A stretch of 64,000 nt of DNA from Candidatus Levybacteria bacterium RIFCSPHIGHO2_01_FULL_37_17 (GTDB lineage Bacteria > Patescibacteriota > Microgenomatia > Levybacterales > UBA12049): positions 124,865-188,864 of the forward strand of contig MFNL01000002.1 of NCBI GenBank assembly GCA_001782035.1, in the 5' to 3' direction. Below are positions 24,972 to 29,143 of the stretch, piece by piece. The notes under the pieces were generated by a model. It was not told where the DNA came from and did no database searches. It worked only from the letters and a program-made list of their open reading frames with translations. The translations under genes and the position numbers were made by a program. Position 1 is the stretch's first letter. Each line of letters starts with the position of its first letter.

Positions 24972-25757
24972 TTATTGAAGCCGTTTTTTATAGTCATCCT
25001 GCTCAAATCTTCCGAAAGGCTGACTCGTTAAATGAGCAAGCATTTCTTCTTCTCTTATGTCTTTAGCTTGCAAAAGTCCGATATTATGCCTTGCTATATC
25101 GTGAATTCTGTCCGGGCTCTCCCCCTCCAGACAATAGTAATCCGTGCCTAAATAAACAGACATAAATAGTGCTTCAAATGCATCTGCTTTCATTTCTTCA
25201 AAGACTGGATCTTTTAGATGCTCGCCCAACGTGTGTCCATGCTCATGAGCGAGAACAGATATTACATCTTCTTCTGTTGTATTTTCTTCTTGTCCTCTAA
25301 AACCTAACCTTATTCTAAACATGCCCCCAGAACGTCTCTTACAATCTCCAATTATAGTTCTGAAAATGTCTTTGCCGTATCTTGCCATCATAAATTCTCT
25401 TTCCAAAGGATTTTTTGGCATCAACTCACGCTGATCAACAAATAGTACCTGTCTACCTGCAGTTGGAAGATATACACCGCTTTCATGGCTTATTAGGGAG
25501 AGAACGTCTCTGTAATCTGCCATCACTCTTCTTCTGCTCCAACCTAACTCTTCTACATGATCATCTTCTGCTTCTTGAAGCCCAGTAATATCTGTTATTC
25601 TTTCAAAGACTACAACAGGCAAATGTTCTAAATTTATGGGATCAGGGTTGTCAACGGGAATTAGCTCTGGGGATTTAACAGGGGAGGGTGCACTAAACTG
25701 TACCTCTGGAAAAAAGACTTGGGTTGGTCTTAACATTTCAGTTCTCTCAACTCTCAC
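24972..25757 (-). CDS. ImmA/IrrE-family-like zinc metallopeptidase (HExxH)
   Basis: LAHEHGHTLGEHL matches the AHELGHxxxH zinc-binding motif of COG2856-type peptidases. GC elevated relative to flanks. Confidence 0.5.
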   Translation of the reverse strand: MRVERTEMLRPTQVFFPEVQFSAPSPVKSPELIPVDNPDPINLEHLPVVVFERITDITGLQEAEDDHVEELGWSRRRVMADYRDVLSLISHESGVYLPTAGRQVLFVDQRELMPKNPLEREFMMARYGKDIFRTIIGDCKRRSGGMFRIRLGFRGQEENTTEEDVISVLAHEHGHTLGEHLKDPVFEEMKADAFEALFMSVYLGTDYYCLEGESPDRIHDIARHNIGLLQAKDIREEEMLAHLTSQPFGRFEQDDYKKRLQ

Positions 25758-25815: not shown

Positions 25816-26121
25816 ATGGCAGCAGGAGTAGAAACAACAATTGCAAAACCACCAAAGTTGTCCCACTCACAGAAAATTTTGGAAGCAATCGATTTACTGG
25901 CTGCGGATGGGATAAGAGGCGCAACCCCAGATCAAATAATAGAAAGGGCAAAAAGGAAGCATCCTTCAAGACTCAATATCATTTTTCAACCATGGTGGGA
26001 TAATGCGTTTAGCAAATTGGAGGCTTCGGGAGAAATTCACGGCATACGAAATCCTGTATATACCCAAGACTCACCGTCCAATAGGCTTTATCAAAGACCC
26101 CTAAAAGAAAAAACTCGATAA
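25816..26121 (+). CDS. small putative winged-helix DNA-binding protein
   Basis: SHSQKILEAIDLLAADGIRGATPDQIIERAKRKHP resembles linker-histone/winged-helix globular domains. Divergent from the peptidase gene. Confidence 0.3.
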   Translation: MAAGVETTIAKPPKLSHSQKILEAIDLLAADGIRGATPDQIIERAKRKHPSRLNIIFQPWWDNAFSKLEASGEIHGIRNPVYTQDSPSNRLYQRPLKEKTR

Positions 26122-26137
26122 ATTTGGTTTGAAGAAG

Positions 26138-26614
26138 TTAATCCCAGCTTAGAGGATGTTCTGAATCTAATTGTCCAGCGTGGCGAATAAGGGAATTTAA
26201 TTCCGATCCAGCAATCCTATGATGACGAGAATAAATATGTCCTAGTTTATCCCAAAACTCTTTTTTTTCTGCGTCCGTTTCAACCTGGCCACTATGTTTA
26301 CCCCTAAAAGTTCCGAAATACCAGTCTACTCTTGTTCTGTTGTTAGCACGTCTGTGATCTTCGATTATTATAATATTTAGTGCGCCTTCTTTTGAATATC
26401 TATCAATTTGCGTCATATAAACAGTCGCCGGCATATCCGATCTTCCAGTGTCTAAGCCTAAAGAAGGCTCCCAATAATTGAATAGCGCGTCTTGAATTGT
26501 TTCCCAAGGAACAAAAGTGGCAAATGAAGATGGGCCCTTTCGGTTAAATTCTCGGCTTCTGGGCAGGTGAGCTGGTTTGTTTTCAACTCCCATTAGCGGA
26601 GTATAAAACCACAA
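26138..26614 (-). CDS. hypothetical protein
   Basis: 158-aa ORF in the GC-elevated island. Consensus minus-strand promoter (TTGACA-17-TATACT) 6 nt upstream of the ATG. Confidence 0.5.
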   Translation of the reverse strand: MWFYTPLMGVENKPAHLPRSREFNRKGPSSFATFVPWETIQDALFNYWEPSLGLDTGRSDMPATVYMTQIDRYSKEGALNIIIIEDHRRANNRTRVDWYFGTFRGKHSGQVETDAEKKEFWDKLGHIYSRHHRIAGSELNSLIRHAGQLDSEHPLSWD

Positions 26615-26630
26615 ACCAAAATTGTCAACC

Positions 26631-26646
26631 GAAAATTTGGTTTTGA
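26631..26646 (+). repeat. island motif copy 1 (GAAAATTTGGTTTTGA)
   Basis: Exact 16-mer between back-to-back -35 boxes (minus-strand TTGACA at 26623-26628, plus-strand TTGACT at 26649-26654). Confidence 0.8.
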
Positions 26647-26648
26647 AC

Positions 26649-26676
26649 TTGACTTTGCGAGCAGAAAAAGTATAAT
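26649..26676 (+). promoter_or_regulatory. sigma70-type promoter TTGACT-16-TATAAT
   Basis: Consensus hexamers with 16-nt spacer, read directly. Confidence 0.6.
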
Positions 26677-26774
26677 AAAATCATGAAAATAGAATTTTTT
26701 AAATTAGTAAGAAGAAACACCTCCCTCGTAGGCGGTGTGCTTTCTTTTGCGTAAAAAATAAATAAATTAGGAGC

Positions 26775-26799
26775 AACCGCCGAAGAGGCGGTTTTTTTG
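26775..26799 (+). terminator. intrinsic terminator (ACCGCC-GAAGA-GGCGGT + T7)
   Basis: GC-rich 6-bp stem followed by TTTTTTT, about 100 nt downstream of the promoter at 26649. Confidence 0.6.
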
Positions 26800-26829
26800 T
26801 GGCAAAATGCCGAAAGGAGGTGAGAAATT

Positions 26830-27156
26830 ATGACAGAAAAATTAAAACCAGCATATGAACAATTTCATATGTTAGAGGAACCTATAAAAGGAGTCCTAGT
26901 TTATCATGGAGAAAACTCTATTCCAATTGTTGGTACACTTATGGGATATGAGCATCACGAATATGCACGTTTTGCATTCAATACCCCAATCCTTGAGGAC
27001 ACTATTCACAAGGTCTCAGAGAGCACAAGGATGGGAGAAATTTACGTGCCATATTCGGTATATGCAAGAGCTCTTCGAGAGCTAGAGAGATATGGGCTCG
27101 GACAAAATCTTCAAAAAGAAGTAGGCGGAGCAAAAAATAGCAACCCTACTTCTTAA
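26830..27156 (+). CDS. hypothetical protein
   Basis: 108-aa ORF with strong RBS AAAGGAGGTGAG. Followed by a hairpin terminator. Confidence 0.55.
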   Translation: MTEKLKPAYEQFHMLEEPIKGVLVYHGENSIPIVGTLMGYEHHEYARFAFNTPILEDTIHKVSESTRMGEIYVPYSVYARALRELERYGLGQNLQKEVGGAKNSNPTS

Positions 27157-27160
27157 AACT

Positions 27161-27183
27161 AAAACCCCCGTTGCGGGGGTTTT
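27161..27183 (+). terminator. bidirectional intrinsic terminator AAAACCCCCG-TTG-CGGGGGTTTT
   Basis: Perfect 6-bp GC stem flanked by an A-run and a T-run. Confidence 0.7.
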
Positions 27184-27210
27184 AGTTTGGATAAGCCTCG
27201 AAATAACCCC

Positions 27211-27226
27211 GAAAATTTGGTTTTAG
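27211..27226 (+). repeat. island motif copy 2 (GAAAATTTGGTTTTAG)
   Basis: 14/16 identity. Preceded by AAATAACCCC. Confidence 0.8.
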
Positions 27227-27268: not shown

Positions 27269-27502
27269 ATGGCGCAACAAGGAGAAAGAGGAATCTTCCC
27301 ACCAATAGATGAGCTCATGAAACAGGTTAGGGCAGAAGAAGCGAGAGAGCCGTATCGCGGACATGATATGCCACAAAGAGAAATAACATGTACTCCAGGA
27401 CAATCAGCTGAAATGACTCCGGGATTACTTCGCCTTGCCAAAAAGTGGGGGGATCAACTTAGACAGCCTAAACCTCGAAAAAAAACACAACCAAGAAGAT
27501 AA
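27269..27502 (+). CDS. hypothetical small protein
   Basis: 77-aa ORF, about 46% GC, with a leaderless-type promoter. Confidence 0.45.
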   Translation: MAQQGERGIFPPIDELMKQVRAEEAREPYRGHDMPQREITCTPGQSAEMTPGLLRLAKKWGDQLRQPKPRKKTQPRR

Positions 27503-27506
27503 CCCA

Positions 27507-27522
27507 GAAAATTTGGTTTTGA
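27507..27522 (+). repeat. island motif copy 3
   Basis: Exact 16-mer preceded by AGATAACCCA. Lies 5 nt after the upstream stop codon. Confidence 0.8.
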
Positions 27523-28878: not shown

Positions 28879-28894
28879 GAAAATTTGGTTTTGA
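28879..28894 (+). repeat. island motif copy 4
   Basis: Exact 16-mer preceded by AAATAACCGC. Lies 4 nt after the stop of the 439-aa ORF, in a convergent gap. Confidence 0.8.
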
Positions 28895-29127: not shown

Positions 29128-29143
29128 GAAAATTTGGTTTTGA
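29128..29143 (+). repeat. island motif copy 5
   Basis: Exact 16-mer. TTGGTT within it serves as a -35, with 17-nt spacer to TATAAT (29157-29162), then 6 nt to the ATG at 29169. Confidence 0.8.

What the first reader, a model, noticed from the sequence alone, without database searches (positions are those of the whole stretch)
26649..26829. Promoter-terminator-framed leader/sRNA of about 120 nt carrying an anti-Shine-Dalgarno sequence upstream of a gene
TTGACT-16-TATAAT (26649-26676) is followed about 100 nt later by a GC stem plus T7 terminator (26775-26799). After that come the RBS AAAGGAGGTGAG and the ATG at 26830. The transcribed stretch contains CACCUCCC (about 26720-26727), complementary to that RBS. 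This is the layout of a transcription-attenuation leader or riboswitch-like element, or alternatively an independent sRNA.
Basis: seen in the sequence. Interest (0 to 1): 0.55.

Follow-up and report, generated by a model that had tools for sequence, protein, structure and literature searches.

The report
Arginine-codon leader-peptide transcription attenuator
The promoter-to-terminator stretch is most likely a switch in which a ribosome translating a tiny upstream gene with two arginine codons decides whether transcription continues into an unknown 108-amino-acid gene, a gene whose distant relatives are instead controlled by an arginine-tRNA-sensing T-box RNA.

Summary
All exceed chance.

That is the modal leaderless-mRNA geometry in this Candidatus Levybacteria genome. 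It opens a 23-codon ORF with tandem AGA-AGA (Arg) codons just 5' of a four-segment 1:2 / 2:3 / 3:4 layout (anti-antiterminator, antiterminator, terminator).

The whole leader is conserved in L012, upstream of a homologue only about 38% identical in protein. The leader is 89% identical; the CDS, at 72%, is no better than unrelated DNA. TATAAT-N6-ATG, MKI.F.K..RRNT, all stems, the terminator and the SD are kept. Differences fall in loops, spacers and one mismatch position.

Two other homologues are preceded by T-box leaders whose specifier reads AGA (Arg).

Best reading: a trp-type, ribosome-mediated attenuator with a leaderless leader peptide that senses charged tRNA-Arg. The anti-SD is strong in the window but weak in L012, so it is an add-on at most. 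It is not a riboswitch and is unlikely to be a free sRNA.

This is a new variant of a known kind. The regulated protein has no known function. Only two leader sequences exist and there are no expression data.

The parts
26631..26644 (+). GAAAATTTGGTTTT motif just upstream of the -35 box, lying between two divergent -35 boxes. It may be a shared operator or UP-like element of the gene island. Its role is not established.
   Evidence: Five copies lie on the + strand between 26.6 and 29.1 kb, each beside a promoter.
26649..26676 (+). Sigma-70-type promoter TTGACT-16-TATAAT
   Evidence: Matches 11 of 12 consensus positions. The equivalent in L012 is TTGATT-16-TATAAT.
26683..26754 (+). Leaderless leader ORF of 23 codons plus a TAA stop: MKIEFFKLVRRNTSLVGGVLSFA. 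The ATG sits 6 nt after the -10 box, at the predicted TSS.
   Evidence: Read directly. The same TATAAT-N6-ATG geometry opens real genes at 27269, 29169, 29738 and 26593(-). In L012 the ATG, the N6 spacing and MKI.F.K..RRNT are conserved.
26710..26715 (+). Tandem AGA AGA (Arg) codons, numbers 10 and 11 of the leader ORF. These are the proposed stalling site.
   Evidence: They are identical and in frame in L012. AGA makes up 53% of Arg codons in the window. T-boxes upstream of homologues have an AGA specifier.
26717..26724 (+). Segment 1, ACACCTCC. It is the 5' arm of the 1:2 anti-antiterminator hairpin and contains the anti-SD CACCTCC. The extended arm begins at 26709.
   Evidence: Folds. The 1:2 duplex is -13.5 kcal/mol and the 1:SD duplex is -12.6 kcal/mol.
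26731..26746 (+). Segment 2, GGCGGTGTGCTTTCTT. It pairs either with segment 1 or with segment 3, where it forms the antiterminator.
   Evidence: The 2:3 hairpin is -15.4 kcal/mol and the 2:3 duplex is -17.2 kcal/mol. The shuffle test gives p of about 0.0015.
26771..26781 (+). Segment 3, GAGCAACCGCC. It includes the 5' arm of the terminator and pairs alternatively with segment 2.
26787..26798 (+). Segment 4, GGCGG plus the T7 tract. It is the 3' arm and U-tract of the intrinsic terminator, whose full stem spans 26775-26793.
   Evidence: (-12.2 kcal/mol). The stem is identical in L012 and only the loop differs, GAAGA versus GAAAA.
26813..26824 (+). Shine-Dalgarno AAAGGAGGTGAG of the regulated gene
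   Evidence: This is the strongest SD among 62 crude gene starts, of which only 6 have any SD-like motif. GGAGGTGA is conserved before all four homologue lineages.
26830..27156 (+). Regulated gene: a 108-aa protein of unknown function (OGH02563.1, Candidatus Levybacteria)
   Evidence: It has no Pfam, PHROG, PADLOC, NCBIfam or PDB match.
27159..27190 (+). The gene's own 3' hairpin, AAAACCCCCG..CGGGGGTTTT. It closes a monocistronic unit.
   Evidence: Inverted repeat I3

Best explanation
This is a trp-type, ribosome-mediated transcription attenuator whose leader peptide is translated from a leaderless mRNA.

Proposed mechanism (inferred, not shown):

- Transcription from P26649 starts at or next to the A of ATG 26683, so a ribosome can load directly on the 5' AUG.
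- **Arg-tRNA plentiful:** the ribosome runs through the AGA-AGA codons and over segment 2. The stop is at 26752 in the window and inside the hairpin loop in L012. Segment 3 is left free to pair with segment 4. The terminator forms and a roughly 115-nt RNA is released.
- **No translation at all:** hairpin 1:2 forms and termination follows again.
- **Charged tRNA-Arg(UCU) scarce:** the ribosome stalls with AGA in the A site. Its footprint covers segment 1 (26717-26724) but not segment 2 (from 26731). Segment 2 pairs with segment 3 as soon as segment 3 is transcribed. The terminator cannot form and RNA polymerase reads into the 108-aa gene.
- **Extra lock in the window only:** the same stalled ribosome keeps the anti-SD in segment 1 away from the SD. 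Read-through RNAs without a stalled ribosome can fold 1:SD and be translationally silent.

Shown here: all sequence elements, the alternative pairings and their energies, conservation of the unit, the leaderless geometry of the genome, and the T-box with its AGA specifier in homologues.

Inferred: the TSS, translation of the sORF, stalling, and the regulatory outcome.
For: 1. **Leaderless start.** TATAAT-N6-ATG at 26671/26683 matches the genome's modal leaderless geometry. Among 105 promoter-like sites, an ATG lies at N6-7 in 10 cases against about 2.8 expected, and 7 of these open ORFs of at least 60 codons. Examples are at 27269, 29738 and 26593(-) and 29169. SD motifs are rare, at 6 of 62 starts.
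2. **Four-segment layout.** The energies are 1:2 -9.3 (extended -13.5), 2:3 -15.4 and 3:4 -12.2 kcal/mol. Complementarity between the leader and the terminator arm has p of about 0.0015 against shuffles.
3. **Footprint test.** With a ribosome footprint imposed on the AGA codons, the nascent RNA folds into the 2:3 antiterminator in the window (A site on the first AGA) and in L012 (both positions).
4. **Conservation.** The L012/L013 leader lies upstream of a homologue with 38-40% protein identity. It is 89% identical over aligned positions. The CDS is 72% and unrelated upstream DNA scores 73% with the same aligner. The -10 box, the N6 spacing, the ATG, 27 nt without any indel up to AGA AGA AAC ACC, all stems, the terminator and the SD are kept. 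Four indels and the substitutions fall in spacers, loops and the single 1:2 mismatch position.
5. **The C-terminus of the peptide is dispensable.** In L012 a 1-nt deletion moves the stop into the hairpin loop, giving the 15-aa peptide MKIKFIKSTRRNTTS. This fits a leader peptide rather than a functional protein, and both stop positions lie before segment 3.
6. **Independent pointer to Arg.** Homologues P0003 and P0006 are preceded by T-box leaders (RF00230; E 1.6e-16 and 6.4e-13, full-length matches). Their specifier loop ends in AGA followed by G just before the lower stem GGAAG/CUUCC. This follows from the CM register, from independent folds and from the published rule of codon plus conserved purine (PMC4574755).
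7. **Codon usage.** AGA is the major Arg codon, at 53%.
8. **Precedents.** Leaderless leader-peptide attenuators are described in Deinococcus (PMC4007540) and in mycobacteria (10.1101/834739). Sensing by two consecutive Arg codons is described in Salmonella speF orf34 (PMC6386406).
Against: - Only two distinct leader sequences exist. All stems are invariant, so there is almost no covariation.
- The swap test is one-sided. One 2:3 chimera weakens (-13.5 against -17.2 and -17.6) and the other does not (-17.0).
- The AGA-AGA codons also lie in the extended 1:2 stem, where AAGAAG pairs with CUUUCUU. RNA structure alone could therefore explain their conservation.
- All five substitutions in the 5' part of the sORF are non-synonymous, so there is no coding signature.
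- In the window with the A site on the second AGA, the terminator and antiterminator states are nearly isoenergetic.
- The T-box matches fall below Rfam's gathering score (79.5 and 65.6 against 93 bits). Their specifier is read by rule, not by experiment.
- The regulated protein has no known link to arginine.
- No TSS, 3'-end or expression data are available.
- Pattern scans of metagenome, genome and viral collections found no further members.
Confidence: 0.55

Rival explanations
1. It is a transcription attenuator with the same 1:2 / 2:3 / 3:4 switch, but set by a trans-acting RNA-binding protein or another factor that binds the A-rich 5' region or hairpin 1:2, in the manner of PyrR, TRAP or L10. 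The ATG is incidental and the sORF is not the sensor.
For: The alternative structures are real and conserved. There is no synonymous-substitution signature in the sORF. The AGAAGAAAC tract is part of the extended stem, so its conservation does not need translation.
Against: In a genome where an AUG at N6 after a -10 box is the normal way to start translation, a 5' AUG would be translated anyway. The ATG, the N6 spacing and the frame up to the AGA codons are conserved while nearby spacers carry four indels. Both stop codons lie before segment 3. The T-box AGA specifier in homologues matches the only tandem codon the two peptides share. No candidate binding protein is known.
Confidence: 0.15
2. 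It is a ribosome-mediated attenuator that reports general translation stress, for example ribosome-targeting antibiotics or global starvation, rather than Arg-tRNA specifically. This would resemble the leader-ORF attenuators of resistance genes.
For: The architecture of sORF, hairpin and terminator is the same as in the best explanation. The regulated gene is an ORFan in an island of ORFans. One homologue lies next to an AbiEii toxin gene.
Against: Tandem AGA-AGA is conserved at codons 10-11, placed so that a stalled ribosome covers segment 1 but not segment 2. Homologues use an amino-acid-specific T-box whose specifier is the same codon.
Confidence: 0.12
3. It is a small two-gene unit. A leaderless gene for a functional 23-aa micropeptide has its own leaky terminator, and the 108-aa gene is expressed by constitutive read-through with no switch.
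For: The promoter, ORF and terminator form a complete unit. No promoter fits between the terminator and the SD, so the 108-aa gene depends on read-through.
Against: The C-terminal 9 residues are lost or changed in L012 through a frameshift, and all 5' substitutions change the amino acid. This is poor conservation for a functional peptide. The model does not explain the highly non-random complementarity of segment 2 to the terminator arm (p of about 0.0015) or its conservation (-17.6 to -19.0 kcal/mol in L012).
Confidence: 0.08
4. It is an independent trans-acting sRNA of about 115 nt that happens to lie upstream of the gene.
For: It has its own strong promoter and a strong intrinsic terminator. 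Attenuator-derived RNAs can act in trans, as rnTrpL does (PMC6614838, listed).
Against: In both genomes it is fused to the same gene family with no intervening promoter. It carries a conserved 5' AUG ORF. No Rfam sRNA family matches above noise. A trans role could at most be secondary.
Confidence: 0.05

Closest known systems
Classical leader-peptide attenuators of amino-acid operons (E. coli trpL and the his, leu, thr, phe and ilv leaders; Rfam RF00513 and relatives)
   Same: Both have a short leader ORF with tandem regulatory codons at positions 10-11. Both have four segments forming 1:2, 2:3 and 3:4 pairings, and an intrinsic terminator just before the regulated gene. The best sub-threshold Rfam hit of the window leader is Trp_leader (24.3 bits, E 0.009, 26703-26800). 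From my own knowledge, E. coli TrpL is [14 protein letters not shown], against MKIKFIKSTRRNTTS in L012.
   Different: The codons are Arg (AGA), not Trp. The leader ORF is leaderless and has no SD. The regulated gene is an ORFan and not a biosynthetic operon. The host is a CPR bacterium. The hit falls below the gathering score of 41, and L012 gives no such hit. The likeness is one of layout and does not establish membership.
Leaderless leader peptides predicted to attenuate aaRS and amino-acid genes in Deinococcus deserti (PMC4007540); similar cases are described in Corynebacterium (PMC3890552, PMC11857589)
   Same: The TSS coincides with the AUG of a short peptide rich in the cognate amino acid, upstream of an SD-led gene. 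The host genomes are rich in leaderless mRNAs.
   Different: Those cases control tRNA synthetase or biosynthesis genes. No Arg case is mentioned in the main text of that paper. Here the target is unknown and the host belongs to the CPR.
Mycobacterial polycysteine leaderless sORF attenuators (bioRxiv 10.1101/834739)
   Same: Both have a leaderless sORF. In both, a ribosome stalled on repeated codons blocks an RNA structure that would otherwise sequester the RBS of the downstream gene. This parallels the segment 1 anti-SD to SD pairing in the window.
   Different: The mycobacterial system acts on translation only and senses Cys. Here an intrinsic terminator is the conserved core, and the anti-SD is weak in the second member.
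Salmonella speF leader orf34 (PMC6386406)
   Same: Two consecutive arginine codons in an upstream ORF make ribosome speed report arginine supply and choose between alternative mRNA structures.
   Different: orf34 works through Rho-dependent termination, RBS unfolding and RNase G sensitivity. It is SD-led and 34 codons long, and it controls ornithine decarboxylase. There is no intrinsic terminator switch.
T-box leaders (RF00230) and the B. subtilis anti-TRAP operon rtpA-ycbK
   Same: The same protein family is placed under an AGA-specifier T-box in L010, L011 and L014. Two unrelated devices therefore appear to read the same signal, tRNA-Arg charging. From my own knowledge (Sarsero et al. 2000, cited as reference B34 in PMC2494555), anti-TRAP is a small regulatory protein controlled by a tRNA-Trp T-box plus a Trp-codon leader peptide.
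   Different: The window leader itself has no T-box sequence and no Stem I. Whether the 108-aa protein is a regulator like anti-TRAP is unknown.

Membership tests
Ribosome-mediated (leader-peptide) transcription attenuator | A short ORF at the 5' end of the leader with a usable translation start | tested here: met
   ATG 26683 lies 6 nt after TATAAT, which is the modal leaderless geometry of this genome. It is conserved in L012. Translation itself has not been shown.
Ribosome-mediated (leader-peptide) transcription attenuator | Two or more codons for the sensed amino acid, placed so that a stalled ribosome masks segment 1 but not segment 2 | tested here: met
   AGA AGA lies at 26710-26715. A footprint of about 13 nt beyond the A site reaches 26723-26726. 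Segment 1 is 26717-24 and segment 2 starts at 26731. The geometry is the same in L012.
Ribosome-mediated (leader-peptide) transcription attenuator | Mutually exclusive 1:2, 2:3 and 3:4 pairings, with 3:4 an intrinsic terminator directly upstream of the regulated gene | tested here: met
   Shuffle test p of about 0.0015. Conserved in L012.
Ribosome-mediated (leader-peptide) transcription attenuator | Structure supported by compensatory changes across homologues | tested here: inconclusive
   Only two sequences exist and their stems are invariant. The 2:3 extension is kept in a shifted register. One chimera loses about 4 kcal/mol and the other does not.
Ribosome-mediated (leader-peptide) transcription attenuator | The regulated gene is functionally tied to the sensed amino acid | tested here: inconclusive
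   The protein has no known function, and the AlphaFold model is unusable at pLDDT 41. An indirect link exists, because homologues lie behind AGA-specifier T-boxes.
Ribosome-mediated (leader-peptide) transcription attenuator | Termination and read-through respond to amino-acid supply | not testable with these tools
   This needs RNA 3'-end mapping or reporter assays.
Rfam Trp_leader (RF00513) | Score at or above the gathering threshold, and Trp codons in the leader peptide | tested here: not met
   24.3 bits against a gathering score of 41. The sORF has no Trp codon, and L012 gives no hit at E of 1 or below.
T-box leader (RF00230), window leader | Stem I with a specifier loop, and the conserved T-box antiterminator sequence | tested here: not met
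   No hit in the window at the gathering threshold, and none at E of 10 or below in 26500-26900.
T-box leader (RF00230), leaders of homologues L010, L011 and L014 | A full-length match with Stem I, a specifier loop, the AGGUGGUACC antiterminator and an overlapping terminator | tested here: met
   E-values are 1.6e-16, 6.4e-13 and 4.3e-6, and the first two cover model positions 1-219. A terminator overlaps the antiterminator. The scores (79.5, 65.6 and 39.1 bits) fall below Rfam's curated cut-off of 93.
Independent trans-acting sRNA | A non-coding unit whose occurrence does not depend on the downstream gene | tested here: not met
   It carries a conserved 5' AUG ORF, and in both genomes it is fused to the same gene family with no promoter in between.
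Metabolite riboswitch | A conserved, structured aptamer domain 5' of the expression platform | tested here: not met
   No Rfam match. The first 34 nt or so are AU-rich and unpaired in the centroid folds.

The most novel reading that the evidence does not exclude
The 80-160-aa ORFan family (OGH02563.1 and its relatives) could be a previously unrecognised effector or regulator of the response to uncharged tRNA-Arg. Two lines of descent have wired it independently to that signal, through an AGA-specifier T-box in one and a leaderless Arg-codon leader-peptide attenuator in the other. On that reading, this would be, as far as the searches here show, the first intrinsic-terminator attenuator keyed to arginine codons, and a peptide-based amino-acid sensor in a CPR (Levybacteria) bacterium that probably depends on external amino acids. 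The family's presence in ORFan or mobile-looking neighbourhoods, next to AbiEii or MazG-like genes, leaves open a role in stress, host-dependence or phage-triggered tRNA-Arg depletion.
Probability: 0.3. Interest if true: 0.7.

Novelty: new variant of a known kind. Interest (0 to 1): 0.55.

Why it matters
Ribosome-mediated attenuation is textbook biology for Trp, His, Leu, Thr, Phe and Ile/Val operons. The searches run here found no intrinsic-terminator attenuator keyed to arginine codons.

If the reading is right, it would show three things:

1. CPR bacteria, which have tiny genomes and few recognised regulators, use coupled transcription and translation on leaderless mRNAs as an amino-acid sensor.
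2. T-box and leader-peptide devices are interchangeable modules placed in front of one gene family.
3. An uncharacterised small-protein family belongs to the arginine or tRNA-Arg stress response. That gives a concrete handle for finding its function, following the established practice of annotating hypothetical genes from T-box specifiers (PMC2494555).

It also shows that in SD-poor, leaderless-rich genomes, any strong promoter followed at N6-7 by an ATG should be read as a potential sensory sORF.

Tried and rejected
- **Rfam.** The whole window at gathering threshold gave only a tRNA. Sensitive mode on 26500-26900 gave only sub-threshold noise plus Trp_leader at 24.3 bits.
- **Near-identical contigs.** L001-L009 have a leader that is 100% identical, so they give no information. 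L001 has 7 SNPs, all in CDSs. L162 lacks the leader.
- **More leaders by DNA pattern** (AGAAGAAA[CY]ACC..GGCGGTG). Metagenome contigs gave 17 hits. Viral contigs gave 10 hits. All were chance matches: ordinary hairpins, coding sequence, or an unrelated Saccharibacteria repeat.
- **More family members.**
  - A word-index search found only a 97% variant.
  - Full HMMER against 1.84 billion representatives found three true distant clusters.
  - A profile search added nothing.
  - The genome-contig and viral protein scans were empty.
  - tblastn against phages and plasmids was empty.
- **Function of the 108-aa protein.** Pfam, PHROGs, PADLOC, NCBIfam and PDB profile searches were all empty. AlphaFold2 on the 4-sequence alignment gave pLDDT 41, so no fold search was run.
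- **Covariation.** Two sequences are too few, and the chimera test was one-sided.
- **Anti-SD as the main mechanism.** Rejected as the conserved core, because L012 has CACCACC with a central mismatch (-7.2 kcal/mol).
- **A promoter between the terminator and the SD.** None fits in the 30 nt available.
- **Literature on the accession and on T-boxes in the CPR.** Nothing was found.
Full report
**Observation**

- TTGACT (26649-26654), a 16-nt spacer and TATAAT (26671-26676) form a promoter matching 11 of 12 consensus positions.
- A 7-bp stem, AACCGCC/GGCGGTT (26775-26793), has loop GAAGA and is followed by T7. It is the top terminator-like site in 20-34 kb and the cleanest compact GC hairpin plus T-run in the whole window.
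- AAAGGAGGTGAG (26813-26824) precedes ATG 26830, which opens a 108-aa ORF.
CACCTCC is the exact complement of GGAGGTG.

Against 2000 dinucleotide shuffles of the leader, the leader-SD duplex (-14.8 kcal/mol) has p of about 0.0075. No shuffle reached both.

An ATG lies at 26683, exactly 6 nt after the -10 box, where transcription should start. It opens a 23-codon ORF, MKIEFFKLVRRNTSLVGGVLSFA, with a TAA stop at 26752-54.

This geometry is how genes start in this genome.

- TATAAT-N6-ATG opens the 77-aa, 174-aa, 299-aa and (on the minus strand) 151-aa neighbours. Spacings of N6 to N9 open many others.
- Among 105 promoter-like sites, an ATG falls at N6-7 ten times against about 2.8 expected. Seven of those ten open ORFs of at least 60 codons.
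- Only 6 of 62 crude gene starts have any SD-like motif, and the SD of the 108-aa gene is the strongest of them.

The organism is a Candidatus Levybacteria MAG (CPR), GCA_001782495.1.

**Anatomy of the switch**

- Segment 1: ACACCUCC, 26717-24. With AAGAAG upstream it extends to 26709.
- Segment 2: GGCGGUGUGCUUUCUU, 26731-46.
- Segment 3: GAGCAACCGCC, 26771-81.
- Segment 4: GGCGGUU plus the U-tract, 26787-98.

Pairing 1:2 gives a hairpin (-9.3 kcal/mol for the core, -13.5 extended). Pairing 2:3 gives an antiterminator (-15.4). Pairing 3:4 gives the terminator (-12.2).

The tandem AGA AGA codons (26710-15, codons 10 and 11) sit immediately 5' of segment 1. A ribosome stalled there would cover segment 1 and leave segment 2 free. 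With such a footprint imposed, the nascent RNA folds into 2:3 in the window when the A site is on the first AGA, and in L012 at both positions. In the window with the A site on the second AGA, the two states are near-isoenergetic.

A ribosome that reaches the stop codon covers segment 2, so 3:4 forms. With no ribosome at all, 1:2 and 3:4 form. This is the logic of the trp attenuator.

**Comparative evidence**

The 108-aa protein is nearly an ORFan. Nine contigs carry it with a 100% identical leader, which is uninformative. A full HMMER scan of 1.84 billion representatives found three true distant clusters, P0003, P0004 and P0006, at 37-41% identity.

The P0004 loci (L012, L013) carry a homologous leader. 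Its parts, in order, are:

- TTGATT-16-TATAAT, then N6, then ATG.
- AAA ATA AAA TTT ATT AAA TCA ACA AGA AGA AAC ACC ACC TCG TAG.
- The same hairpin.
- A stronger 2:3 pairing, GGCGGUGUUC/GAAUACCGCC (-17.6 to -19.0 kcal/mol).
- The same terminator stem, with loop GAAAA.
- The same T7-GTGG tract and SD.

Leader identity is 89% over aligned positions. The CDS is 72%, and unrelated upstream DNA scores 73% with the same aligner.

The differences are a 12-nt and a 9-nt spacer deletion, two 1-nt indels, a loop base, the single mismatch position of 1:2 (U to A), and five substitutions in the 5' part of the sORF. The ATG, the N6 spacing and the 27-nt frame up to AGA AGA are untouched.

The 1-nt deletion moves the stop into the hairpin loop, giving a 15-aa peptide. 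The C-terminus of the peptide is therefore dispensable, as expected for a leader peptide.

Covariation proper cannot be assessed with two sequences. The helix extension of 2:3 is kept in a shifted register. Only one of the two swapped combinations is weakened: -13.5 and -17.0, against native values of -17.2 and -17.6.

**The T-box link**

The other two homologues (L010/L011 and L014) have a different leader, a T-box. The Rfam RF00230 matches have E-values of 1.6e-16, 6.4e-13 and 4.3e-6. The first two are full-length matches that include AAAGGUGGUACCACGGG and an overlapping terminator about 8 nt before GGAGGUGA. The bit scores fall below Rfam's curated threshold of 93, so I call them T-boxes on E-value and anatomy.

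In both full-length copies the lower Stem I helix is GGAAG/CUUCC. The 3' side of the specifier loop is (C)AAAAAGAG. Three lines of evidence place the specifier at AGA followed by G:

- The CM register aligns GAAauuca with AAAAAGAG.
- Independent minimum-energy folds give the same loop.
- The published rule says that in the 8-nt loop class the codon is followed by a conserved purine, which is G in S. aureus glyS (PMC4574755).

AGA is the Arg codon that is tandemly repeated in both leader peptides. It is the only tandem amino acid they share. It is also the main Arg codon of this genome, at 53%. Two mechanistically unrelated leaders in front of one gene family thus point to the same signal, charged tRNA-Arg. 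I regard this as the strongest single argument for the Arg-sensing reading. It is still an inference.

**The anti-SD**

In the window the full read-through RNA has a minimum-energy fold with 1:SD and 2:3 together (-37.9 kcal/mol, against -36.9 with the terminator forced). Read-through RNA without a ribosome on segment 1 could therefore be translationally silent, a second lock like the one in mycobacterial poly-Cys sORFs (10.1101/834739).

In L012 the equivalent sequence, CACCACC, has a central mismatch (-7.2 kcal/mol), and the minimum-energy fold leaves the SD free. Any sequence that pairs with GGCGGUG will nearly pair with GGAGGUG, so the anti-SD may be partly a by-product.

**Comparison with known systems**

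The closest known kinds are:

- Classical leader-peptide attenuators.
- Leaderless leader peptides predicted in Deinococcus deserti (PMC4007540) and described in corynebacteria.
- Mycobacterial leaderless poly-Cys sORFs.
- Salmonella speF orf34, where two consecutive Arg codons sense arginine through Rho and RNase G (PMC6386406).

The window leader is not a member of any Rfam family. Its Trp_leader hit is sub-threshold (24.3 bits against 41), and it has no T-box.

It is a new variant. The codons are Arg, the leader ORF is leaderless, the switch uses an intrinsic terminator, the host is a CPR bacterium, and the target is an ORFan family that elsewhere carries an Arg T-box.

T-boxes mostly control tRNA ligases, amino-acid transport and biosynthesis, with 8% in front of unknown or unrelated genes (PMC2494555). 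The family is therefore a candidate arginine-related function. From my own knowledge, the small regulatory protein anti-TRAP of B. subtilis is a precedent for a small protein under tRNA-charging control.

**Limits**

- Only two leader sequences are available.
- There are no TSS, 3'-end or expression data.
- The function of the regulated protein is unknown. There are no family hits and the AlphaFold model is unusable.
- The AGA codons also lie in a stem.

My confidence that this is a cis-acting terminator/antiterminator attenuator is about 0.8. That it is ribosome-mediated through the leaderless sORF, about 0.65. That it senses tRNA-Arg, about 0.55.

Noticed in passing
window 26631-26644, 27211-27224, 27507-27520, 28879-28892, 29128-29141 (degenerate copy near 26113-26132): An invariant 14-mer, GAAAATTTGGTTTT, occurs five times on the + strand within 2.5 kb. 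No copy with fewer than 3 mismatches occurs elsewhere in the 64 kb. Each copy lies in an intergenic gap beside a promoter of an ORFan gene. Two copies lie between divergent -35 boxes (GTCAA|motif), and three follow ATAACC. It could be a shared operator or UP-like element for the island between holB and gyrB.
   Followed up: partly
whole window: The genome is SD-poor and rich in leaderless mRNAs. Of 62 crude gene starts, 6 have an SD-like motif and 16 have a -10 box 5-9 nt upstream. None has both. N6 is the modal spacing.
   Followed up: yes
L010 1239-1477, L011 1-132, L014 1-235: Divergent T-box leaders with an AGA (Arg) specifier lie upstream of small ORFan proteins, P0003 (159 aa) and P0006 (80 aa). 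They have non-canonical K-turn and S-turn sequences (AAA in place of GAA) and score below Rfam's gathering threshold. The source organisms are unknown.
   Followed up: partly
window 26807-26823 versus L014 272-292: The segment between the terminator and the start codon, ATGCC(C)G(G)AAAGGAGGTGA, is shared by the peptide-type leader in the window and the T-box-type leader in L014. This suggests that the sensing modules were exchanged upstream of a conserved SD segment.
   Followed up: no
L053 ~2790-2850, L069, L088 (Saccharibacteria MAG CAYQFQ01) and L031: A repeated double-hairpin element, GGAAATTTTC..GAAAATTTCC followed by AGAAGAAACACCGCG..GGCGGTGTTTCT, occurs at least three times in one Saccharibacteria genome. 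The pattern scan picked it up by chance, and it is unrelated to the leader.
   Followed up: no
P0002 (1954 aa) and P0005 (605 aa): Two long repeat proteins match residues of about 50-98 of the 108-aa protein many times over (26 and 5 stretches). P0005 is made of repeats like TPYTIAVSDTAAHVAAAIDALNANSH. The match is probably compositional, but this was not checked.
   Followed up: no
window 24972-25757 (-): A 261-aa ORF contains an HEHGH motif, the HExxH pattern of zinc metalloproteases. It has no Pfam, PHROG, PADLOC or NCBIfam match.
   Followed up: no
L010 341-1060; L012 912-1208: Homologues of the 108-aa gene lie next to an AbiEii toxin-family gene (L010) and a weak MazG-like gene (L012). 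This hints at a mobile or stress-island context for the family.
   Followed up: no
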